Shown here: in pieces, positions 3,605 to 56,246 of the stretch
How the letters are laid out: every line of letters starts with the position of its first letter
Numbering within the stretch: position 1 is the stretch's first letter
DNA from: Ignavibacteriales bacterium
Lineage (GTDB): Bacteria > Bacteroidota > Ignavibacteria > UBA10030
Direction: 5' to 3'
DNA length: 56,246 bases
NCBI GenBank assembly: GCA_037446575.1
Contig: JBBIII010000007.1
Coordinates: forward strand, 1-56,246
Made by a program: the position numbers and the translations under genes
Notes under the pieces: model-generated
Seen by the model: only the letters and a program-made list of their open reading frames with translations
The model's database searches: none
What the model was told of the DNA's origin: nothing

Positions 3605-3860
3605 GAAATATTGGAGTAGTTACTAAGGAGTATAGTTGTATTTTGTTAGTTGAAATTGTAAGTAGAAGAAGAAAATAGAAAATGAATAATAAAATAACAT
3701 ATTGGTTGATTGAAAAATTTCATCATATCAAAGCGGCTTGTCAAAGGACGATGCTTGAAATTATTTTGACGGATACTATGATATGCTGGATTACTATTTT
3801 CAGAAATTATTATATGTTATATTCAAGTGATTGTTGCAAATTAAATCAACAGGTGGCCCT

Positions 3861-6800
3861 ATGGTCGCAAAGTTAACTAAAATATTGCCGCGTTGCCTAA
3901 GTATGCATAGAAAACGGCTTACCCGTTCGAGTTTGACTGCATTTGTTTTATTGCTGTTGGTTACTGCAAGTACAAATTCGCAAAACTTTATCAATACCAG
4001 TACGGGTAAATACAGTGGTCAGGGCACATTCCGCGTAAAAAATAATGCTACCGGTTTACCTGATACTGTAACCGGTACTTTTGAATTTTTTGGAACAGGA
4101 AAGCATTCGATTGAATCTAAGAATTATGAAAATCTTAGACTAAAGGGTGACGCAAATACAATTAGAACTACAACCGCTGGCGATTTGGGTATTCTTAAAA
4201 CAGTTGCTATTGCCGACGGCGTTAGATTTGAAGTTGCTTCAACAATGAATTTAGAAAAGTTAGAAGGCAGAATTACTAAAGAAGAGGGACTTATCATCGG
4301 AAAAGTGAAAAAATCTGCAGATTTCAATGCTTCCGCGCCCGATTCTTCCGACTTCGGAGGGATTGGTATGTCCATTCGTTCTGATGCAACATCTCCGGGT
4401 ACAATAGAAATTTTACGCACATCAGGTTCAGGTATCACAGGTTCTACTGGAAATAATTCAATCTCAAGAGTTTATGATGTAAATCCAGAGGTAACCGGTG
4501 GGTTCGAGGGTAAAATATTCTTCCGCTATGCGAAAGATGAATTAAATAATCAAGATTCGATGACCTTGGATCTGTGGCGTTCAATTGATGGTAATACTTG
4601 GCGAAGACAAAGAACACTTAGAAATGGAAATATCTTAGAACGAACAGGCAAATTCCTAAATGGATTGTGGACTGCCTCCGATGCATCTAATTTGCTTGGA
4701 AGAAAAAATTATGAATTCGACCCAGATTCTATTTTTGCATTAGGTGCAGATTCTCTTAAAGGTAGAGTCAATAAGTTGATGATTAATCCATTTGTCGCGC
4801 AGGTTACAGATATTTATGGAAATCCAATTCAAGGCGCTATGGTTCAATTCAGCATCGATTCTATTCCAGATGGCGCAGTGGGACAGTTACTTACAAATTC
4901 TAATGTTATTACGAATTCTCAAGGTCAAGCCGAAACATATCTACATCTCGGCGATAAGAAAGGCAAGTATAAAATATTAGCTAAGGTGATCTCCGGAGAT
5001 TCAGCCCGAATGGAATTTTTCGGCTTTGGTGAATCTGGCGTAAGTAATTTCGTATCTAAATCTACAATAGTTTTTGATACTGTTAGAAAAGAAATCGGAC
5101 CGTTCACTGTCGAGGCGTTTGACGATCAAGGTCTTTTAGTTTCATCGAGCGAAGTGATATGGAGTGTCAGACCTCCAATAGATAAGTATTCTACAATGCA
5201 TGAAGTTGTCGTTTCTAAATCCGATACAATAACAAATGCAAATGGAAGCGCGCAAGCTTATGTGCTACTTGGCGAAAAAACCGGCGATTATATTATCGAA
5301 GCTCGATCAAAAGAAAACGATAGTGTGTTTGCCGCTTTCACTGTTAGAGCGCTGCACGGATTGCCTTCACTCGCTAATTGGGAAGATAATATTGCTCGGC
5401 AAGATACCATTGGCGCTGTTATGCCCGAATTCAAATATAGAATTACGGACGTAGATACAAATGCAGTTCCTGCTCGCTTAGTCCGATTTGCATTATACCA
5501 ACCCGATGGCAGTTTAATTGATACAATTCGCACATCAACAAACACCGAGGGGACTGCAAAAGCGTCGTTTAATTACGGCTTAAAAGCAGGCAAATATATT
5601 GTGCAAGCTGAAGATATTAATCTTCTTGGTTCAACTCGTTTTGATACCTGCATCGCAAAACATGGTAAAACAGCAAAGTTCGATCAAATTTATTCCTCTG
5701 TATCCGATACAATTGGAGCTACAATATTATTTGGCGTTAAACTCGCCGATAGAGGAGATAACCCTGTAGATTCTGAATCAGTCATATATAAATTTGTAGA
5801 TGTGCCACTTGGGTCGTCCCCCTCGCTCATTAAAGATAGTGTCTTGACAGACACAAGCGGTAATGCTTTAAACTATTTAGTGCTCGGAGATAAAATAGGA
5901 GCATATACTATACAAGCGGAAGCATCATCGTTGGCATATTATCCAATTCAATTTAATTTTAACGCACGTGCTGGTCTGCCGCAAAAAATGCTCGCTGAGC
6001 GCGGCTTTAATCAAGAAGCGGAAATTTTACAACCGCTTAACATTCCATTTGAAGTGCGTCTAACAGATAGAGCAAACAATCCGCTTGCTAATGATACAAT
6101 TCGATTTACATTTGCCGAAGTACCCGATTCGATTGCTAATACTGGTTACTCATTGACTAATTCGCAAGATATAACGGATATTAACGGTATTGCATCTACA
6201 TATTTAACGCTTGGCAATAAAATTGGGGAATATAAGGTTAGAGCGATTTCTAATAAACTAAACACGCCGGTAGAATTCATTGCTCGCGCACTTCCCGGTT
6301 CTGCAAGAATTATAGCGTATAGATATGGCGGCTACGGACAGAAAACAATTCTTTCTCTTCTCGATACAGCGCTTACTGTTAGAGTAACTGACTTAGGCGG
6401 AAATCCTGTTTCAAATACATTAGTTAGATTTACAATCCAAAATACACCTACTAACGCTTGGGGTTATAGAATTGGACGCGACACTACGTGGTCAATTTCT
6501 TTCGATACTGTCAGAACAAATTCTTCTGGATTGGCGGCAAGCTATTTGCGCTTAGGTTCAAAAGTTGGCGCTTATAGAGTAATTGCAACATCGCCGGCAT
6601 TATCGGATACAATAAGATTTTCTAATATTACAGCCACGGTTGGCGCTCCAAAAATATTAACATATTTGCCTGATTCATTAGGAAATCCCGGCAATGCTCA
6701 AGTGATGCAAATCGGCGATACGCTCAGACCATTTATTGTTCAAGTACGCGATACAGGCGATAATTTTGTTCCTTATGTTAAAGTAAACTTCACAATTTTA

Positions 6801-7943
6801 CAACGTCCGGCTTTGGATACAAGCGCGGCTCTTATAGCTTCAAGAGATACTACCGATATTATCGGAAGCGCTTACACAATATTAGCTTTAGGCGATAGGA
6901 GAGGAATTTACAGAGTCAAAGCGTCTGTGCCCGGACTTAAAGATACAGTCTTTATTGCTGAAGCTCGAATGCTGTTAGCAGACGCTAATCACGATAATTA
7001 TCAGAATATTGGCGATTTAACTGCAATGATCGATCATGTTTTAGGAAAGAAACGTCTCAATAGAATCCAATTCTTAAAATCTGATATATATCCAACGCTT
7101 CCCGATGGATCAATTGGTGATGGCATTGTTGATTTCAGAGATATAGTTGCTTGCCGCGACAGTCTATTAGTCGCCGGTTGGATACCGACACAAGATCAAA
7201 TTCAAAGTAATTTAAGTATCTCATTCAAATTGAGCGGCGCATCGGTAGCGCAAGGAGTAGGCGCGCAACTTCTAACATCAACAACAGATTCGTGCTATAT
7301 ACAAACGACGCATATCGGCTCTCGGTTCACATTAAAGAATTCTATTCCAATAAAAGGTATGCAAGCTGTAATTTATTTAAAGAACCCTGCAATTATAGAT
7401 ACAACTGATCTAATATTCCCGCGCGCAAGTATGATGCGCACCGAAGTGAAGAGTGTTGGCAAGGTAGTTACTGTTATTTTGTGGAATACAAACAATATCC
7501 CAATAGAACCGGGTGATTCTGCAATATTCCGTCTGCCTGTGCAATTAACAAATAATAATGTGGATTCAATTAATATACTTATGAGTACAGGTGATAATAA
7601 CACTGTCGGTCTACTTGGCACTAAGAATATGGATATAAGAAATCTCATTCCCAAAGATTATATGTTATACCAAAATTATCCGAATCCGTTTAATCCTTCA
7701 ACAACAATTCAATTTGATGTGCCGGAAGTTGCAGGTAAAATGCCGCGCGTAGCGATTCAGATATTTAATATTTTGGGACAAAAAGTTACAACAATTGAAC
7801 GCAACGTTTATGATGCCGGTCGTTATACAGTAACTTGGCATGGTATAAATGAAAATGGCGCGCGTGTTGCAAGTGGCGTCTATTTCTATCGCTTACTTGC
7901 CGGCGAATATGCGAGCACCAAGAAAATGGTAATGTTAAAATAA
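3861..7943 (+). CDS. Large T9SS cargo: N-terminal solenoid module, 7 invasin/Big_1-like Ig repeats, dockerin-like domain, cohesin-like region, T9SS/FlgD-Ig CTD
   Basis: AGGTGG then ATG 3861; signal ending TNS|Q; 7 x T(N/D)xxGxA...GxKxGxY; DANHDNYQNIGD...DGIVDFRD; QNYPNPFNPST...SGVYFYRL...KKMVMLK. Confidence 0.85.
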   Translation: MVAKLTKILPRCLSMHRKRLTRSSLTAFVLLLLVTASTNSQNFINTSTGKYSGQGTFRVKNNATGLPDTVTGTFEFFGTGKHSIESKNYENLRLKGDANTIRTTTAGDLGILKTVAIADGVRFEVASTMNLEKLEGRITKEEGLIIGKVKKSADFNASAPDSSDFGGIGMSIRSDATSPGTIEILRTSGSGITGSTGNNSISRVYDVNPEVTGGFEGKIFFRYAKDELNNQDSMTLDLWRSIDGNTWRRQRTLRNGNILERTGKFLNGLWTASDASNLLGRKNYEFDPDSIFALGADSLKGRVNKLMINPFVAQVTDIYGNPIQGAMVQFSIDSIPDGAVGQLLTNSNVITNSQGQAETYLHLGDKKGKYKILAKVISGDSARMEFFGFGESGVSNFVSKSTIVFDTVRKEIGPFTVEAFDDQGLLVSSSEVIWSVRPPIDKYSTMHEVVVSKSDTITNANGSAQAYVLLGEKTGDYIIEARSKENDSVFAAFTVRALHGLPSLANWEDNIARQDTIGAVMPEFKYRITDVDTNAVPARLVRFALYQPDGSLIDTIRTSTNTEGTAKASFNYGLKAGKYIVQAEDINLLGSTRFDTCIAKHGKTAKFDQIYSSVSDTIGATILFGVKLADRGDNPVDSESVIYKFVDVPLGSSPSLIKDSVLTDTSGNALNYLVLGDKIGAYTIQAEASSLAYYPIQFNFNARAGLPQKMLAERGFNQEAEILQPLNIPFEVRLTDRANNPLANDTIRFTFAEVPDSIANTGYSLTNSQDITDINGIASTYLTLGNKIGEYKVRAISNKLNTPVEFIARALPGSARIIAYRYGGYGQKTILSLLDTALTVRVTDLGGNPVSNTLVRFTIQNTPTNAWGYRIGRDTTWSISFDTVRTNSSGLAASYLRLGSKVGAYRVIATSPALSDTIRFSNITATVGAPKILTYLPDSLGNPGNAQVMQIGDTLRPFIVQVRDTGDNFVPYVKVNFTILQRPALDTSAALIASRDTTDIIGSAYTILALGDRRGIYRVKASVPGLKDTVFIAEARMLLADANHDNYQNIGDLTAMIDHVLGKKRLNRIQFLKSDIYPTLPDGSIGDGIVDFRDIVACRDSLLVAGWIPTQDQIQSNLSISFKLSGASVAQGVGAQLLTSTTDSCYIQTTHIGSRFTLKNSIPIKGMQAVIYLKNPAIIDTTDLIFPRASMMRTEVKSVGKVVTVILWNTNNIPIEPGDSAIFRLPVQLTNNNVDSINILMSTGDNNTVGLLGTKNMDIRNLIPKDYMLYQNYPNPFNPSTTIQFDVPEVAGKMPRVAIQIFNILGQKVTTIERNVYDAGRYTVTWHGINENGARVASGVYFYRLLAGEYASTKKMVMLK

Positions 7944-7972
7944 GGAAATCCTTCCTACCGGAAGGATTTCCT
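7943..7972. repeat. Perfect 13-bp inverted repeat overlapping the stop codon (GGAAATCCTTCC element)
   Basis: aggaaatccttcc-tacc-ggaaggatttcct; no U-tract; same motif recurs at 56.1 kb. Confidence 0.9.
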
Positions 7973-13271: not shown

Positions 13272-13706
13272 ATGAAATTGAAAAGGAAAACTAAAGTACG
13301 CAATTTATATCAATTGGAATGTTCTAGTGTATCTAAGAATGTTTCGTGTATTGAAGGATTTTTAGAAGATATTAGGAATAAACACAATATCGACGATGGA
13401 ACGATGTACAGATTGCTCGTATCTTGTACAGAGGCGGTTAATAATGCGATAATTCATGGAAACAAATCTGATCCAACAAAAAAAGTAAATGTAATCTGCA
13501 AAGTAGAAAAAAAGAATTTGACGATAAGAGTGAGGGACCTCGGAATAGGATTTAACTCTGAAAATCTGCCCGACCCGCGTGATGAAAAAAATCTATTAAA
13601 AGAAAGCGGAAGAGGTATATTTTTAATGCGGTCATTAATGGATGAAGTAAGATTTAAAAAATTAAAATCAGGTTCGGTAGTCGTAATGAAGCTAAAATTG
13701 CATTAA
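13272..13706 (+). CDS. RsbW-like anti-sigma factor (HATPase_c)
   Basis: EAVNNAIIHGN, DLGIGF, GRGIFLMRSLMD. Confidence 0.88.
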   Translation: MKLKRKTKVRNLYQLECSSVSKNVSCIEGFLEDIRNKHNIDDGTMYRLLVSCTEAVNNAIIHGNKSDPTKKVNVICKVEKKNLTIRVRDLGIGFNSENLPDPRDEKNLLKESGRGIFLMRSLMDEVRFKKLKSGSVVVMKLKLH

Positions 13707-13726
13707 TGATTATCTATATCGCTGCA

Positions 13727-13768
13727 ATATAAAAAAACCGCTCCTTTGCAAGAGCGGTTTTTTTATAT
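13727..13768. terminator. Bidirectional intrinsic terminator
   Basis: aaaaaaaccgctc-ctttgcaa-gagcggttttttt between convergent genes. Confidence 0.9.
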
Positions 13769-13783
13769 TCGTTCAACAATAAA

Positions 13784-15016
13784 TTAGAATGCGTATCCAA
13801 CATTAACGCATAAAACATGGGCTGTGCTATTATAATATCCGCGTAAAGCAGAATTAGTTGCATCCTTTTCTGTAAAATTGACTAACATATATGCTGCATC
13901 AACCGATAAATTTTCATTAATTTTATAACTTCCACCAATGGAAATGTTTATACGATCAGCATCTGGAAGCATCGGTTCTGTCTTACTGCGTGGTTGCGGT
14001 GTAATGTCATATATAACTCCACCGCGTAAGCATATTTGGTCGTCAAGTTTATATTCTGCGCCAACACGCCCCGTATAACCTACACTCCATTTTTTAATTT
14101 GTGTTACGGGAGCTTGCAGTCGCGTTCCAGTACCAGGGAACACAGGCCCAAGTGGGAGGTTAATTGTAAGTTTATTGTATGCATCCCAACCCACGTATTG
14201 AAGATCAGCTTCAACTGTTAATTCTGGCATTAATTCATAAGCGGCGCCCATAAAGACATTCATTGGCATAGGTAGTTTTGCTTTGCCAGTTCCACCTGGG
14301 AAGTATGGTTGCAAAGCGCCCATTTCCGTAAACTTTGCATCGCCAGAAAATTCAATTTCTGTTAACGAGCGGAACGAGACTCCTAAAGATAACTTTTCTA
14401 TCGGTTTGTATATTGCTCCAAAATTAAAACCAAAACCTGAACCTGTCCCCTCTAAACTCATAATTCCCCCTGTAGCAGTACGTTGCTTCATAGCAACACT
14501 GCCATAAATTAAAGATAAACCTAAACCAACAGAGAGGTCATCGTTTATTTTATAAGCAACGGATGGATTGAAATTGAATGTTACAATTTCGGATTCAATA
14601 GCATGCTGGCTACCGACCCAATTAACAGGCCATTTTGTCCCAAGTCCATACGGATTAAATACACCAAGACCAACCACAATCTGATCATTTATTTGATATG
14701 TGCCATACAGGTTGATAGGGGTAAAAACCTGACTTTCGGTCGATGTTTCTGTTTGAGAAGGAACTGGACCTCTAAAAGTTGTTGAAGGTAAAATAATGGA
14801 TGTACCGCCTAATACATTGATCCCCTGTAATTGTGTTAGCCCCGCAGGATTAAAATAAATTGCCGATGGATCTGATGCTCTTGCTACAAAAGCACCGCCC
14901 ATTCCTGTTGCTCTTGCTCCATGCTCGTTTAATTGATAACCGCCCCCAAACAAAATGGAAAACGCGAGTACGGAAAGGACAATTGTCCACGTCAATCGTA
15001 GATTTAATTTACTCAA
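13784..15016 (-). CDS. fadL: FadL/OmpP1/TodX-family outer-membrane transporter
   Basis: GYQLNEHG..GMGGA..A..DPSAIYFNPAG; PMLPDADR; terminal YAF; SD AGGAGG with TTG start. Confidence 0.88.
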   Translation of the reverse strand: MSKLNLRLTWTIVLSVLAFSILFGGGYQLNEHGARATGMGGAFVARASDPSAIYFNPAGLTQLQGINVLGGTSIILPSTTFRGPVPSQTETSTESQVFTPINLYGTYQINDQIVVGLGVFNPYGLGTKWPVNWVGSQHAIESEIVTFNFNPSVAYKINDDLSVGLGLSLIYGSVAMKQRTATGGIMSLEGTGSGFGFNFGAIYKPIEKLSLGVSFRSLTEIEFSGDAKFTEMGALQPYFPGGTGKAKLPMPMNVFMGAAYELMPELTVEADLQYVGWDAYNKLTINLPLGPVFPGTGTRLQAPVTQIKKWSVGYTGRVGAEYKLDDQICLRGGVIYDITPQPRSKTEPMLPDADRINISIGGSYKINENLSVDAAYMLVNFTEKDATNSALRGYYNSTAHVLCVNVGYAF

Positions 15017-40079: not shown

Positions 40080-40152
40080 GGGGCTGTAGCTCAGTTGGGA
40101 GAGCGCTTCGTTCGCAACGAAGAGGTCGTCAGTTCGATCCTGATCAGCTCCA
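40080..40152 (+). tRNA. tRNA-Ala(CGC), CCA not encoded
   Basis: Acceptor GGGGCTG/CAGCTCC with G3:U70; anticodon arm cttcg-ttCGCaa-cgaag; T-loop TTCGATC. Confidence 0.96.
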
Positions 40153-40226
40153 CAAAGATTAGAAATATTTCTTTCTAGTTATTATTGAATAGCAAAACAA
40201 TAGGATTGGAGTTTTAGTGGGTCATT

Positions 40227-40328
40227 GGGGTCAAGTCCTGTGCAACAAATCATTGCCCAACCCCGCCAGGTCCGGAAGGAAGCAACGGTCAGCAAATCGT
40301 TTTGTGTGACGCAGGTAAGCTTGACCTC
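40227..40328 (+). ncRNA. ffs: Signal recognition particle RNA (4.5S)
   Basis: CAGGTCCGGAAGGAAGCAAC domain IV; ggggtcaag/cttgacctc closing stem; T-run follows. Confidence 0.95.
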
Positions 40329-40628
40329 TTTTTTTATTATATGAAGTTATGAAGCTATGCCTGTGGTTTGAGCAAGTTATGACAAACCGAGCAGGTAATT
40401 AAATGATTCATAATAATAGCAAACAGATCTTTTCACTTATGTTAGCAAAGACTAACTACAATATTGCTAAAATAAGCAAGGCGCTGTACATTGATCGATT
40501 CGGTGAGAGACTCAAAGGATTTTATAACTGCACTGAATTTCTTTTAAAATTAGGCAGAAATTTCCTGCTTCGTTCAAAAATACTAAGCGCTTTCAAAAAA
40601 ATACTTTTCAAGTGGGATAGGATTTTGC

Positions 40629-53216: not shown

Positions 53217-56111
53217 ATGAAGAAAATATTTTTAACAATTCTAAGTGGAATAATTTTAACGGAAGCATCGCTTGCTCAAACGGCATCCAGCGTATGGGAA
53301 TTAACAACTAACACTACTCCAATAATTATCGGCGAAGTAGTCAGCGCGAATCAATCGGCAATGAATTTATCTTATATAGAATGGAAAACTACATATCAAA
53401 GACGCGCAATCAGCAGTACAAATAAACTTTTGCCTGTCGGTTATAATGAAAGCTATTATATCCAATATATAATTGCGCCGAAGCCGGGATATAGTATAAA
53501 CGTCAATTCAATTACAATGAAATTATTTTGCGATGGTACAAGCGATAAAGGAAAAGCGGCTATTTATTATTCACTTAAAAATGATTTTTCTTCATCTACG
53601 GCAATATATTCGTTTGCAACACCGCTTTCATTGAGCGGCTCACTGCCTGCCAATCCAAATGTAAGTTTTACTGGAAATATTCGAGTGAGTAATGGCGACA
53701 CTTTATACTTGAGAGTATATCCTTGGTTAACAGAGGTAACATCTTCCGGTAAGTATTTAGCAAGCGCTAATGTTGTTATCTCTGGTATCGCGCAATCGAC
53801 AATTGCGATAATAACATCAACAGATGAGCTAAGCGAGTTTATGCAAACAACCGCAACCCCGTCAGATTCAAAATCTTACAGCGTATCGGGTTTGAATCTT
53901 ACAAACAATGTCATAATTACTCCACCTGAAAATTTTGAAATATCTACTGACGCCGGTTCATCATGGAATAATAATTTATCGCCAGTGGCGCTAACCCAAA
54001 CCGGCGGCGTAATATCTGGTCAACCAGTTACAATATTAGTTAGAATGAATTTATCATCCGCAGGAGCTTTTAGCAGTGAAATAACTCATAATAGCGAAGG
54101 AGCTTCAATCAAACGCGTCTTAGTAAGCGGAGTTCGTTTAATGGCCGAACCGACTGTTCAATCGGCTATTACATTTGGTAATACAACAGGAAGTACTATT
54201 GAAGTGAATTTTTCTGGAGGAAATGGAAGCAGGCGGATTCTTGTTGCACGCAAATTAAATCCAGTTTCTTGGGCTCCATCTGATGGCAGTGGAGTAAATG
54301 CAAACAGCGATTTTTCATCAGCAATAGATATGGGTGATTCAAATAAAGTCATTTACGATGGTGCGGGGAATAGCGTCATTGTTAGCGGATTGAATGTTGG
54401 AACATTGTATCATTTCGCAGTATATGAATATAATGTTGCCTCAGGTAATTCGCAGAACTACTTAATAGATTCTCCGGGCAGAGGTAATATATCGTCACTC
54501 TCAATTTCAACTTTATATGTTACTCCGGATTCATTAAATTTCGGGTTAGCAGTTGTTAGTGGTTCTATAATTGAAAAATCGTTCATGCTTGAGGGAAATT
54601 TTCTTTCTCCAGAAAGTGGAAATATCACTGTAAGCGCTCCGGTTGGATATCAAGTGTCAGTAGTTAGCAAAGCAAATTATGCATCGACTCTCGAAATTCC
54701 GTATACAGATTCTTCAATAAGGAAAACAATATACGTTTGTTTTATACCAACTGAAAATACAATCTACAGCGGAATTATTTCTATCGCTGGCGGTGGCGCG
54801 GTTGAAGTAAATGTTGCTGTAAACGGAAAAGGTGTGTCATCTTCAACTCTTCCTTCAATGCAAATGATTGGTTATGCAACTGTCAGCGGCGAAGGATATA
54901 CGACAACCACAGGGGGGGCTGGCGGCACAGTTACAACTGTTAGAACTTTAGCAGATTTACAGACATGGGCGGCTGCAAGAGAAAATAAAACTAACCCTGC
55001 CATATTATATATCGATGGAAAAATATCAAGCCCTACATCTACAGTCGTTACAATTAAGCATGGAGCTAATATTTCAATTTATGGTGTTGGTTCGACAGCC
55101 GAGTTACAAAATGTAGGACTTAATATACGAAATTATAAAAATGTAATTATAAGAAATTTAATAATTCACGAAGTTCTCTATCCAAACGATGCGCTGACAA
55201 TTGATGAATGCCGCCATGTATGGGTAGATCATTGTGAGTTGTATAGCAAAATAGGTCCGGGAATTGGAGTAGATACTTATGACGGTTTGCTTGATATAAA
55301 AAATGGCTCGCGTTATGTAACAGTATCCTGGTGTTACTTTCATCATCACATGAAATGCATGCTGTGGGGACACACCGATAACGTTGCACAAAGACAGATT
55401 GATAGTTTAATGAGAATTTCTTTTCATCATAATTGGGTCTCTTATACAGATGGGCGTAATCCGAGCTTGCGTTTTGGAGTGGCTCACATTTTCAATAATT
55501 ATTTTGAAGAAATAACTGATTATGGAGTTGCGGCGCGAGTTGGCGCGCGTGTTAAATTAGAAAACAACCATTACCGCAACGTTGTGTTGCCTATGTCGAC
55601 TGATAAATTTCCGGTTACGGGATTGCCAAATGGATATATTTGCGAAAGCGGGAATCTATTTTCAGGTTTGTGTGGGGAAAAAGTTATTTCACAAGCAGGA
55701 TGCGAGTGGTGGAATTTCGAAACATTGCCGTATTTATATGAACTCGATCCTGTTGAAATGATCGAAGAAAATGTAAAACTCTATGCTGGGGTAGGAATTA
55801 TAACGACAACCGTTAAAAAACATATGGAAGAATTACCTATTGCATTCAAATTATACCAAAATTATCCAAATCCGTTTAATCCAACCACTACAATCCGATT
55901 CGATATTCCCAACGTAGGGACACATCACGATGTGTCATTAAAGATATATGATATTATTGGGCGCGAAGTAGCAACGCTTGTGAATGAACCAAAAGAAGTC
56001 GGCAGTTATGAAGTTGTATTAGACGCATCAAATCTTGCAAGCGGTATCTATTTTTACAAATTGCAGGCAAGTAATTTTTCGTCTGTAAAGAAATTAGTAT
56101 TGATGAAATAA
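53217..56111 (+). CDS. Multidomain pectate lyase (PL1) with T9SS CTD
   Basis: Signal ending SLA|Q; TTGGAGG, NVIIRNL, WVDH, DGLLD, RNPSLR; QNYPNPFNP...SGIYFYKL...KKLVLMK. Confidence 0.9.
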   Translation: MKKIFLTILSGIILTEASLAQTASSVWELTTNTTPIIIGEVVSANQSAMNLSYIEWKTTYQRRAISSTNKLLPVGYNESYYIQYIIAPKPGYSINVNSITMKLFCDGTSDKGKAAIYYSLKNDFSSSTAIYSFATPLSLSGSLPANPNVSFTGNIRVSNGDTLYLRVYPWLTEVTSSGKYLASANVVISGIAQSTIAIITSTDELSEFMQTTATPSDSKSYSVSGLNLTNNVIITPPENFEISTDAGSSWNNNLSPVALTQTGGVISGQPVTILVRMNLSSAGAFSSEITHNSEGASIKRVLVSGVRLMAEPTVQSAITFGNTTGSTIEVNFSGGNGSRRILVARKLNPVSWAPSDGSGVNANSDFSSAIDMGDSNKVIYDGAGNSVIVSGLNVGTLYHFAVYEYNVASGNSQNYLIDSPGRGNISSLSISTLYVTPDSLNFGLAVVSGSIIEKSFMLEGNFLSPESGNITVSAPVGYQVSVVSKANYASTLEIPYTDSSIRKTIYVCFIPTENTIYSGIISIAGGGAVEVNVAVNGKGVSSSTLPSMQMIGYATVSGEGYTTTTGGAGGTVTTVRTLADLQTWAAARENKTNPAILYIDGKISSPTSTVVTIKHGANISIYGVGSTAELQNVGLNIRNYKNVIIRNLIIHEVLYPNDALTIDECRHVWVDHCELYSKIGPGIGVDTYDGLLDIKNGSRYVTVSWCYFHHHMKCMLWGHTDNVAQRQIDSLMRISFHHNWVSYTDGRNPSLRFGVAHIFNNYFEEITDYGVAARVGARVKLENNHYRNVVLPMSTDKFPVTGLPNGYICESGNLFSGLCGEKVISQAGCEWWNFETLPYLYELDPVEMIEENVKLYAGVGIITTTVKKHMEELPIAFKLYQNYPNPFNPTTTIRFDIPNVGTHHDVSLKIYDIIGREVATLVNEPKEVGSYEVVLDASNLASGIYFYKLQASNFSSVKKLVLMK
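55914..55940. repeat. GTAG-type REP-like palindrome inside the coding sequence
   Basis: GTAGG-GACACATC-ac-GATGTGTC-atta, encoding VGTHHDVSL. Confidence 0.7.
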
Positions 56112-56198
56112 GGAAATCCTTCCAGTTAGTTAAAGAGAAAAGGTTATCTTTTTGGTGTAATAAAAATAAGAAGTATCCGGAAGGATTTCCTTATTTCA
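56104..56198. repeat. Perfect 20-bp inverted repeat spanning both stop codons, 55-bp spacer
   Basis: tgaaataaggaaatccttcc 56104-56123 and ggaaggatttccttatttca 56179-56198. Confidence 0.95.
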
Positions 56199-56246
56199 AC
56201 AGCACTAACTTCTTCGTCTCATAAGACAAACCTATATTCAAACGAT
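56191..56246 (-). CDS. 3' end of a convergent T9SS-CTD gene (partial, absent from the ORF track)
   Basis: Minus strand translates ...RLNIGLSYETKKLVLLK-stop, matching the CTD ends of the other two cargo genes. Confidence 0.85.
   Translation of the reverse strand, partial: RLNIGLSYETKKLVLLK

What the first reader, a model, noticed from the sequence alone, without database searches (positions are those of the whole stretch)
56104..56198. A fixed non-coding motif fused to the stop codon of every T9SS cargo gene (AAA-TAA-GGAAATCCTTCC)
Seen: three different CTD genes are followed with zero spacing by the same 12-mer, GGAAATCCTTCC. They are the genes ending at 7943(+) and 56111(+), and an unannotated gene ending at 56191(-). 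Their upstream codons differ (MVMLK, LVLMK, LVLLK), so the untranslated bases are better conserved than the coding ones. I saw the motif after no other stop codon in the window. Here two cargo genes sit tail to tail, and their motifs make a perfect 20-bp inverted repeat around 55 bp. Inference: a cargo-specific cis element. Options are a recombination or insertion half-site that moves or shuffles CTD-bearing genes like cassettes, the target or scar of a small element that homes to KK..K-stop ends, or an mRNA 3' tag for stability or localisation of secreted-protein transcripts. I do not recognise it as a described element.
Basis: partly seen in the sequence, partly recalled or inferred. Interest (0 to 1): 0.85.

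Follow-up and report, generated by a model that had tools for sequence, protein, structure and literature searches.

The report
Low-copy palindromic repeat after stop codons
The 12-letter motif is one arm of a small hairpin-forming repeat found at only three places in this one genome. It touches the stop codons of three of about forty secretion-cargo genes, so it looks like a relic of a small mobile repeat and not a universal cargo tag.

Summary
The sequence is as described. GGAAATCCTTCC follows the TAA of the genes ending at 7943(+), 56111(+) and 56191(-) with no spacing. A perfect 20-bp inverted repeat flanks 55 bp at 56104-56198.

The motif is therefore a palindrome arm.

It is not a mark of "every" cargo gene. 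The genome has 40 T9SS C-terminal-domain (CTD) matches and only these 3 carry it. None of 72 CTD gene ends from metagenomes has it. A fourth copy lies at a non-CTD locus, inside the remnant of an insertion-sequence end. Neither pattern scanned (arm plus start of interior; short hairpin) found a related copy in the genome or viral collections.

The three CTDs are not close paralogues. Their coding tails are 52-54% identical, while the arms are 100% identical. The repeat therefore spread recently and separately from the genes.

Best reading (about 0.5): a miniature, non-autonomous palindromic element, like a MITE (miniature inverted-repeat transposable element) or a REP (repetitive extragenic palindrome). 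It has a long and a short form. Next to a TA its terminal A rebuilds TAA, and its RNA hairpin may act as a 3' end barrier.

The bias towards CTD ends is real but rests on 2-3 events and is unexplained. This is a new member of a known kind, of low interest.

The parts
3831..7943 (+). Gene A: 1370-aa Ig-like (Big_1) protein with a T9SS C-terminal sorting domain. It ends ...KKMVMLK, AAA TAA.
   Evidence: ORF. Pfam Big_1 and Por_Secre_tail. TIGR04183 match 7677-7931.
7944..7971 (.). Short form of the repeat: a perfect 12-bp palindrome with arms 7944-7955 and 7960-7971 and loop TACC. It starts at the base after TAA, and TAA flanks it on both sides.
   Evidence: Sequence. Arms. RNA fold -21.4 kcal/mol, z -5.7, with 0 of 200 shuffles as good. 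Flagged as terminator-like only on the minus strand.
53217..56111 (+). Gene B: 964-aa pectate lyase with a T9SS C-terminal sorting domain. It ends ...KKLVLMK, AAA TAA.
   Evidence: ORF. Pfam Pectate_lyase_4 and Por_Secre_tail. TIGR04183 match.
56112..56190 (.). Long form of the repeat: the same 12-bp arms (56112-56123 and 56179-56190) around a 55-nt interior (56124-56178). With one more base on each side it reads as 13-bp terminal inverted repeats flanked by TA and TA.
   Evidence: Sequence. Arms. Fold -39.2 kcal/mol, z -6.9. 77 nt are 93.5% identical to C20 3906-3982. A 412-nt contig of another run spans it with no difference listed inside it.
56104..56198 (.). The finding's span: a perfect 20-bp inverted repeat (56104-56123 / 56179-56198). 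It includes the last codon, the stop codon and the arm of both convergent genes.
   Evidence: 20 nt at 100%, both orientations. extends it to 44-nt arms at 84%, because both tails encode KKLVLxK.
56191..56246 (-). 3' end of gene C, a beta-propeller-repeat (SBBP) protein with a T9SS C-terminal sorting domain (343-aa open frame, 332 aa from its first ATG). The stop is TAA at 56193-56191. The rest of the gene lies in contig C13.
   Evidence: 55-nt overlap of C7 and C13. ORF and tail. Pfam SBBP and Por_Secre_tail. TIGR04183 match C13:12-239.

Best explanation
The motif is the terminal inverted repeat of a miniature, non-autonomous palindromic repeat of the bacterial MITE/REP kind. It is limited, as far as the data reach, to this one Ignavibacteria-type species.

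The genome holds three copies:
- a full-length form at 56112-56190, with 12-13-bp arms and a 55-nt interior;
- an internally deleted form at 7944-7971, with the arms plus 4 nt that match the last bases of the interior;
- a copy with a truncated right arm at C20 3906-3982.

Inferred mechanism. The element enters at a TA in an A-rich context (AAATA). Its outermost base is A. When it lands on the TA of a TAA stop codon, the stop is rebuilt as TA + A and the gene is unharmed. Such insertions survive and look 'fused' to the stop.

Once in place, the transcript ends in a very stable stem-loop. This most likely acts as a barrier to 3' exonucleases or as a weak terminator. That role would be a side effect, not a cargo-specific signal.

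Shown: the anatomy, the copy number, the distribution, the absence from other CTD genes, and the branch points in the assemblies. Inferred: mobility, the TA target and the RNA role.
For: - There are 5 exact arms at 3 loci, against 0.2 expected.
- The arms are 100% identical, while the adjoining coding tails are 52-54% identical.
- The three CTDs rank only 4th to 27th of 35 to each other. The repeat therefore did not travel with the genes.
- The long and short forms share arms. The short form's loop TACC matches the interior's end, TATCC or TAACC. Correia elements likewise come as 155 and 107 bp forms that differ by a 50-bp internal piece (PMC2229807, passages).
- TA lies at or next to all four complete termini. 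Removing the short form plus one TAA leaves AAA TAA TAG, an intact gene end.
- The C20 copy sits 33 nt inside an IS terminal inverted repeat. That repeat is the end of a 1325-bp IS present in 5 listed places in relative G068 (two copies compared in full, identical over 1325 bp).
- The flank right of the C20 copy resembles, at the expected offset, what follows that repeat in the other copies (p about 0.01). Uninterrupted copies have TA at the junction. RUP elements are also reported to insert into IS elements (PMC2229807).
- In independent assemblies the junctions are branch points. C7 and C13 meet at a 55-mer that starts at 56192. In run X3 a 1553-nt contig matches up to 56111 and then continues for 1367 nt unlike the laid stretch. 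In X1 a contig stops at 56111.
- The genome holds other low-copy palindromic families, and 2 of 4 copies of one family also touch a stop codon. This is reported for REPs (PMC3733652, abstract and passages).
Against: - There are only three loci, so every pattern rests on very few events.
- No empty site was read directly.
- No transposase with matching ends was found. At up to 3 mismatches, the only inverted pairs exact in both arms are the two known ones. There is no DDE_3 match. None of the 5 Y1_Tnp ORFs has a perfect hairpin of 9 bp or more resembling this one within 300 nt, and none lies on a contig that carries the motif.
- The flanking duplication is inconsistent. It reads TA/TA with 13-bp arms at 56112-56190, but TAA/TAA with 12-bp arms at 7944-7971.
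- Site 56112-56190 cannot be a single simple insertion. Removing it leaves both convergent genes without a stop, so a further deletion or palindrome-correcting step must be assumed.
- The C20 flank match is not significant without the position constraint (p 0.11-0.17).
- A preference for AAATAA alone does not explain the CTD bias. About 1679 AAATAA sites lie outside coding sequence or on a stop, and only 15 of the 39 CTD ends examined, plus gene C, are among them.
Confidence: 0.5

Rival explanations
1. These are plain transcription-terminator or 3'-stabiliser hairpins kept by selection. The shared sequence comes from local copying, such as duplication or conversion, and not from a mobile element.
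For: The stems are stable: -21.4 and -39.2 kcal/mol, z -5.7 and -6.9. The site at 7944-7971 is the only hairpin between gene A and the next gene. At 56104-56198 both arms are followed by TTATTTC on the sense strand of each convergent gene. Unique classical terminator hairpins follow other genes. Perfect hairpins of 8 bp or more that start -3 to +1 nt from the end of the stop occur at 13 of 2091 crude ORFs.
Against: On the sense strand the short hairpin is followed by TAATAGTAAATAAT, and the scan does not call it on that strand. The long form has a 55-nt loop and is not called. Function does not explain identical arms at unrelated genes, nor the third copy, which has no right arm, upstream of a gene at C20. 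The flanks are too diverged for homologous conversion.
Confidence: 0.2
2. The right arm at 56179-56190, and perhaps the whole palindrome, was made in place by template switching during replication (quasi-palindrome correction). The seed would be the naturally complementary tails of two convergent CTD genes.
For: The two tails are already 84% complementary over 44 nt, because both encode KKLVLxK-stop. The perfect repeat runs 8 nt into both coding tails. This would explain why both stops touch the arms with no spacer, which a single insertion cannot do.
Against: It does not explain the hairpin at 7944-7971, where there is no convergent CTD gene. It also does not explain the C20 copy. It needs a pre-existing left arm and interior. 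It therefore adds a step to the best explanation and does not replace it.
Confidence: 0.1
3. The 77-nt unit is the decayed inner part of an IS end, the C-terminal coding region of its transposase. The window copies are fragments of that IS.
For: In C20 the unit starts right after a true IS terminal inverted repeat, on its inner side. Local alignment to the sub-terminal region of the IS gave weak hits at a similar place: 15 of 500 shuffles as good in G068 and 19 of 500 in G083.
Against: The same test fails for G074 (454 of 500), C20b (243 of 500) and C13 (57 of 500). The window copies lack the IS repeat. The sequence beyond the C20 copy resumes IS-like sequence, which suggests interruption and not descent. 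A BLAST search of 86 genomes of the family matched only the IS repeat part.
Confidence: 0.08
4. One reading: a cis element specific to T9SS cargo genes, either a recombination site for CTD cassettes or an mRNA tag for secreted-protein transcripts. A variant is a 55-bp invertible switch between the 20-bp repeats.
For: All three CTD gene ends in or touching the window carry it. Chance placement at CTD stops is unlikely even among AAATAA sites. The interior holds a TGnTATAAT-like stretch in the C20 copy (read by eye).
Against: It is absent from 37 of 40 CTD genes in the genome. 0 of 72 CTD ends from metagenome loci have it. One copy is at a non-CTD locus. None of the 30 contexts fetched from 61 genomes of the order (G000 included) looks like it. 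No recombinase was found among the 10 nearby ORFs scanned. The contigs laid show one orientation only, and no strand-changing joint was listed. Contigs can hide rare forms.
Confidence: 0.05

Closest known systems
Bacterial MITEs such as Correia/NEMIS (Neisseria) and RUP (Streptococcus pneumoniae); PMC2229807, passages read
   Same: The element is under 200 bp and non-coding. It has perfect terminal inverted repeats, TA at the termini and a long stem-loop transcript. Long and short forms differ by an internal piece of about 50 bp. One copy lies inside an IS, as reported for RUP.
   Different: There are only 3 loci instead of about a hundred or more. The arms are 12-13 bp, against 24 bp in Correia. 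The flanking duplication is not consistent. No matching transposase was found. Two of the three loci sit exactly on stop codons of one gene class.
REP elements of the GTAG- and CGTC-tagged superfamilies, and REPINs mobilised by RAYT transposases; PMC3733652 (abstract and passages), PMC3337134 (start of abstract in the search listing)
   Same: It is a short palindrome located downstream of ORFs. REP termini are reported to supply the stop codon of the flanking ORF. The long form recalls a REPIN, which is two inverted units around a spacer. The genome has RAYT-like genes and GTAG-tagged palindromes of its own.
   Different: It has no GTAG or CGTC tag, and the bases before the stem are ATAA or ATGA. 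Its copy number is very low. It does not flank any Y1 transposase gene. Each arm is not a hairpin of its own beyond a trivial 4-bp GGAA/TTCC pairing.
Intrinsic (Rho-independent) terminators, including bidirectional ones between convergent genes
   Same: It is a stable stem directly after the gene. At 56104-56198 an A-tract and a T-tract flank the stem on both strands.
   Different: The short form has no U-tract on the sense strand. The long form has a 55-nt loop. The same stem sequence recurs at unrelated genes, whereas the genome's other terminator hairpins are mostly unique: 27 recurring stem 10-mers, several of them artefacts of N runs, among 14405 raw hairpin calls that are also inflated by N runs.

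Membership tests
T9SS cargo (C-terminal sorting domain, TIGR04183 / PF18962) for the three flanking genes | C-terminal domain match over the curated cut-off at the very end of the protein | tested here: met
   TIGR04183 scores: gene A 36.6 bits, gene B 43.9 bits, C13 gene 41.2 bits, all over 23. PF18962 scores: 30.5, 46.4 and 34.5 bits, over 27.
   3 of 40 CTD matches in the genome carry it. 0 of 72 CTD ends in metagenome loci carry it. One copy lies at a non-CTD locus.
Bacterial MITE (Correia / RUP type) | Terminal inverted repeats, size under 200 bp, no ORF | tested here: met
   The arms are 12-13 bp and perfect. The forms measure 79-81 nt and 28-30 nt. The 22-codon frame that starts at the ATG in the C20 copy, read by eye from the sequence, is not kept in the window copy (no tool run).
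Bacterial MITE (Correia / RUP type) | Target-site duplication (typically TA) and filled versus empty sites | tested here: inconclusive
   The flanks read TA/TA at 56112-56190 with 13-bp arms, and TAA/TAA at 7944-7971 with 12-bp arms. In X3 a contig lacks the element after gene B's TAA, but its continuation could not be read. No clean empty site was seen.
Bacterial MITE (Correia / RUP type) | A parent IS or transposase with matching ends | tested here: not met
   No IS-sized inverted pair has both arms exact (0 mismatches), apart from the two known sites; looser pairs listed at up to 3 mismatches were not examined one by one. There is no DDE_3 match in the 98%-complete genome. A metagenome-assembled genome can miss IS copies.
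REP / REPIN-RAYT | Conserved GTAG (or CGTC) tag next to the stem | tested here: not met
   The bases next to the stems are ATAA, ATGA and, on the far side, TAAT or TTAT. Other palindromes in this genome do carry GTAG.
REP / REPIN-RAYT | Tens to hundreds of copies, with copies flanking a single-copy RAYT gene | tested here: not met
   There are 3 loci. Of the 5 Y1_Tnp-like ORFs, none has a perfect hairpin of 9 bp or more resembling this one within 300 nt, and none lies on a contig that carries the motif.
REP / REPIN-RAYT | Located downstream of ORFs; may overlap or supply the stop codon | tested here: met
   Three arms touch TAA. The same behaviour is seen for 2 of 4 copies of a GTAG-tagged family in this genome and is reported in PMC3733652.
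Intrinsic terminator | G+C-rich stem, loop of 3-8 nt, then a U-tract on the sense strand | tested here: not met
   Site 7944-7971 is called only on the minus strand. Nothing is called in 55000-56246.
Invertible promoter switch (inverton) | Both orientations present in a population, with an invertase nearby | tested here: inconclusive
   Contigs of X1 and X2 show one orientation, and no strand-changing joint is listed. Contigs drop rare variants. No recombinase family was found among the 10 nearby ORFs scanned.
Known RNA family (Rfam 15) | Match to a covariance model | tested here: not met
   The window has no match at either site at gathering scores. The C20 and C13 loci have none at E up to 1, apart from two chance eukaryotic hits elsewhere.

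The most novel reading that the evidence does not exclude
This is a miniature palindromic element that prefers the conserved K-stop end of T9SS C-terminal-domain genes. It recognises more than AAATAA, for example the V-L/M-L/M-K-stop coding tail. It inserts on the TA of the stop codon and rebuilds TAA with its own terminal base. Cargo genes thereby gain a shared 3' hairpin that could couple their mRNA fate. The bias is statistically real in this tiny sample. Among about 1679 AAATAA sites outside coding sequence or on a stop, only 15 of the 39 CTD ends examined, plus gene C, are CTD stops. Yet 2 of 3 loci, or 3 of 5 arms, sit there.
Probability: 0.12. Interest if true: 0.5.

Novelty: new member of a known kind. 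Interest (0 to 1): 0.2.

Why it matters
The main value is a correction. A pattern that looks universal inside one 56-kb window is a local, low-copy repeat genome-wide. It should not be read as a T9SS signal.

It has modest interest of its own.
- It is a clean small example of a palindromic repeat that abuts stop codons and rebuilds them. This was known for GTAG-tagged REPs, here in an Ignavibacteria-type genome and without the usual tag.
- It marks a spot that is structurally variable in the natural population.
- If the bias towards CTD gene ends held up in more strains, it would point to a target choice worth studying.

Tried and rejected
- RNA evidence: no RNA holder was listed among the 4 runs found, which belong to one study. 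Expression and 3' ends could not be examined.
- Run X4 has no cover over 56130-56163. I draw nothing from this hole.
- Depth figures were not used, because they are one figure per contig.
- The 12-mer in relatives: 48 of 61 genomes of the order (G000 included) have it, against very few hits for the reversed control. All 30 fetched contexts are unrelated and look like coding sequence. None is preceded by TAA and one is preceded by TGA. No two listed hits in a relative lie close together on one contig. The control contains stop triplets and so is depleted in coding DNA. I therefore reject conservation across the order.
- Window scan with up to 2 mismatches: 8 found against 4.24 expected, and 8 of 100 shuffles reach 8. 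Only the exact copies carry signal.
- Near matches to the 18-mer with 2-3 mismatches (C132:995, C138:2388 and others): 17 places in all, 4 of them known arms with 0-1 mismatches and a fifth the right arm at 7960, against 4 for the reversed control. C132:995 reads as a possible ORF start. None has a partner arm. They were not counted as copies.
- Alternative haplotype contigs inside the genome bin: none found by BLAST of the gene tails.
- Metagenome collection: the best relative of gene B is 63% identical, so it gave no strain-level empty site. I used 72 of the 80 loci. The 8 dropped (L033-L039, L049) had matches that stop before the CTD end.
- Genome collection: the pattern for arm plus interior start gave 0 hits. 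The pattern for two arms 3-30 nt apart gave 2 unrelated hairpins, in an Acidobacteriota and a Phaeodactylibacter record, neither after TAA. Long forms with other interiors were not covered by these patterns. The viral collection gave 0 and 0.
- Origin of the unit from the IS interior: weak and inconsistent.
- The flank-continuity test without the position constraint was not significant.
- Search for a partner transposase and for a recombinase among neighbours: nothing found.
- Earlier notes of this scan have no look-alike stretch.
- One script was swamped by runs of N in other contigs. Its useful tail was re-examined.
- Literature: one search for T9SS with 'stop codon', 'inverted repeat' and 'downstream' gave 1 unrelated paper. 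On that search alone I found no description of such a motif.
- The report that REPs within about 15 nt of a stop lower translation through ribosome stalling (Liang, Rudd and Deutscher 2015) is recalled from memory. My search did not retrieve it, so I do not rely on it.
Full report
**Observation.**
The window is a whole contig (C7) of a 2.62-Mb assembly with 159 contigs and 36% G+C. GGAAATCCTTCC occurs exactly four times in it, at 7944+, 7960-, 56112+ and 56179-. It directly follows TAA of gene A (3831..7943) and of gene B (53217..56111). It also follows TAA of a minus-strand tail...KKLVLLK*, that runs off the contig.

That third gene, gene C, continues in contig C13. C13's first 55 nt equal the window's last 55 nt. 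The same 55-nt overlap joins 38 contig pairs, which is the signature of the assembler's word length. All three genes carry a T9SS C-terminal sorting domain (CTD).

The 20-bp perfect inverted repeat around 55 bp is real. The motif is therefore one arm of a palindrome.

The repeat is not chance. The genome has 5 exact copies against 0.2 expected, and 0 of 300 shuffled 12-mers reach 5.

**The claim of universality fails.**
TIGR04183 finds 40 CTD matches in the genome, 37 over the cut-off. Of the 39 with a readable stop, 2 are followed by the motif. The 40th is gene C. So 3 of 40 carry it.

Among 2091 crude ORFs of 100 aa or more, the motif follows only those two stops. In 72 CTD gene ends from metagenome contigs, 0 have it. 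I used 72 of 80 loci; the 8 dropped had matches that ended before the CTD.

The 12-mer is common in 61 genomes of the order (G000 included). However, all 30 fetched contexts are unrelated and look like coding sequence.

Two patterns were scanned in the 185,579-species genome collection and the viral collection. The arm plus the start of the interior gave nothing. Two arms 3-30 nt apart gave two unrelated hairpins in other phyla.

**Anatomy of the repeat.**
The only other extended copy in the genome is C20 3906-3982. It is 77 nt long and 93.5% identical. It has the left arm, the same 55-nt interior with four substitutions, and a right arm cut after GGAA. It lies between a thioredoxin-reductase-like gene and a small ORF, not at a CTD gene.

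So there are three forms:
- full (56112-56190);
- internally deleted (7944-7971), whose loop TACC matches the interior's last bases;
- truncated (C20).

Both window forms fold very stably: -39.2 and -21.4 kcal/mol, z -6.9 and -5.7. Rfam has no match.

**The repeat did not travel with the genes.**
The last 240 coding nt of genes A, B and C are 52-54% identical. Among 36 CTDs, each of the three ranks only 4th to 27th for the others. Identity jumps to 100% at AAATAA plus the arm. This points to recent spread of the short unit itself.

**The C20 copy sits in an IS relic.**
The 33 nt to its left recur at C13 1130-1163, about 130 nt upstream of gene C's first ATG (C13 998), and at C20 117-150. In relatives they are the terminal inverted repeat of an IS. 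In G068 this IS is 1325 bp long and listed at five places (two copies compared in full, identical over 1325 bp). It encodes a 399-aa protein with only a weak IS481-family hit. G000 keeps only a 73-aa fragment of the transposase.

Uninterrupted copies read ...GAAAAT-AGTC..., while the C20 copy reads ...GAAAAT-GA-arm. The sequence beyond the C20 repeat resembles, at the expected offset, what follows the IS repeat elsewhere. This gives p about 0.01 with the position constraint and 0.11-0.17 without it. The simplest reading is that the repeat interrupted an IS end at a TA.

The opposite idea, that the unit is IS interior, received only weak and inconsistent support.

**Population evidence.**
Four runs of one subsurface-metagenome study hold the region as contigs.
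- In X2 a 412-nt contig with 7 differences spans the whole site, and no difference is listed inside the element.
- In X1 the site is covered by short contigs, one of which stops at 56111.
- In X3 a 1553-nt contig matches up to 56111, the last base of gene B's stop. It then continues for 1367 nt unlike the laid stretch.
- Contigs that start at 56192 occur in X1 and X3, and the C7/C13 junction starts at the same base.

The outer edges of the element are therefore branch points in independent assemblies. This fits presence/absence variation. It could also reflect general rearrangement at gene boundaries. I could not read the alternative sequences.

**Context in this genome.**
Other low-copy palindromes exist: two GTAG-tagged families with 4 and 3 copies, and a TGTCAGGAG-type family with about 10. 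The genome also has five Y1 (IS200/RAYT-like) transposase ORFs.

Perfect hairpins of 8 bp or more that start within -3 to +1 nt of the end of the stop occur at 13 of 2091 ORFs. These include 2 of the 4 copies of one GTAG family, one of which supplies the TAG. Di Nocera et al. report the same for REPs (PMC3733652, abstract and passages). Touching a stop codon is thus a known habit of such repeats and is not special to cargo genes.

**Mechanism proposed (inferred).**
With one more base on each side, the arms are AGGAAATCCTTCC and its complement. TA lies at or next to every complete end. Landing on the TA of TAA rebuilds the stop as TA + A, so such insertions are harmless.

Removing the short form and one TAA leaves AAA TAA TAG. 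The long form cannot be explained by one insertion, since both genes would lose their stops. A further deletion or a palindrome-correcting template switch between the already complementary tails must be assumed.

No partner transposase was found. No recombinase family was found among the 10 nearby ORFs scanned. The hairpin RNA probably protects or ends the transcripts. The scan does not call either site a terminator on the sense strand.

**What remains odd.**
212 of 2091 ORFs end in AAATAA, and 15 of the 39 CTD genes with a readable stop do. About 1679 AAATAA sites lie outside coding sequence or on stops. Two of three loci at CTD stops is therefore more than an AAATAA preference predicts. With two or three events, this is a lead and not a finding.

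**Comparison and verdict.**
The element works like a bacterial MITE (Correia or RUP type; PMC2229807, passages) or a REP/REPIN (PMC3337134, listing). It fails the defining tests of REP/RAYT membership: it has no tag, no RAYT linkage and a low copy number. It meets only the structural tests for a MITE.

It is a new, very small member of a known kind, and it is not a T9SS signal. Earlier notes of this scan describe another low-copy intergenic repeat in the same genome and call the organism Ignavibacteria-type. I did not test the taxonomy.

Noticed in passing
C13 1130-1163(-), C20 117-150(-), C20 3979-4012(-); L123 603-1927: Three relics of the terminal inverted repeat of an IS. Intact copies are 1325 bp, with a 399-aa transposase and only a weak IS481-family hit; they are listed at five places in relative G068 (two compared in full and identical) and are also present in G074 and G083. 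G000 keeps only a 73-aa transposase fragment, at C124 4674-4892. One relic lies about 130 nt upstream of the first ATG of CTD gene C.
   Followed up: partly
C30 2663, C56 460, C59 1323, C99 344; C124 2735, C38 14060, C80 4529: Two GTAG-tagged 28-nt palindromic repeat families, with 4 and 3 copies. Two copies touch or supply a stop codon. One copy lies inside a RAYT-like open frame on C56.
   Followed up: partly
C67 7640-7984, C144 1442-1648, C19 17851-18039, C56 282-593, C137 3790-3954: Five Y1_Tnp (IS200/RAYT-like) open frames of 155-195 aa. The C144 frame has a 10-bp hairpin 86 nt upstream.
   Followed up: partly
C10 1-300; C103 6590-6800; C107 6313; C60 4880; C105 556: A family of hairpins with stems TGTCAGGAG or CTGTCAGGAC, partly in short tandem clusters near contig ends. 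A related hairpin follows the CTD gene at C31 22361-22573.
   Followed up: no
C17 28986 and 29320: The same terminator-like hairpin, preceded by what looks like a tRNA 3' end, occurs twice 334 nt apart. This could be tandem tRNA genes or an attachment-site duplication.
   Followed up: no
window 40080-40329: A tRNA (40080-40152) and the small SRP RNA (40229-40329) lie side by side (Rfam).
   Followed up: no
window 13726-13769: A textbook bidirectional terminator, with 18-nt perfect arms and A and T tracts, lies between convergent genes 13272..13706 and 13784..15016. It is useful as this genome's own standard for a terminator.
   Followed up: no
window 56084: A synonymous T/A difference (TCT to TCA) in gene B separates two strain variants in runs X1 and X2.
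   Followed up: no
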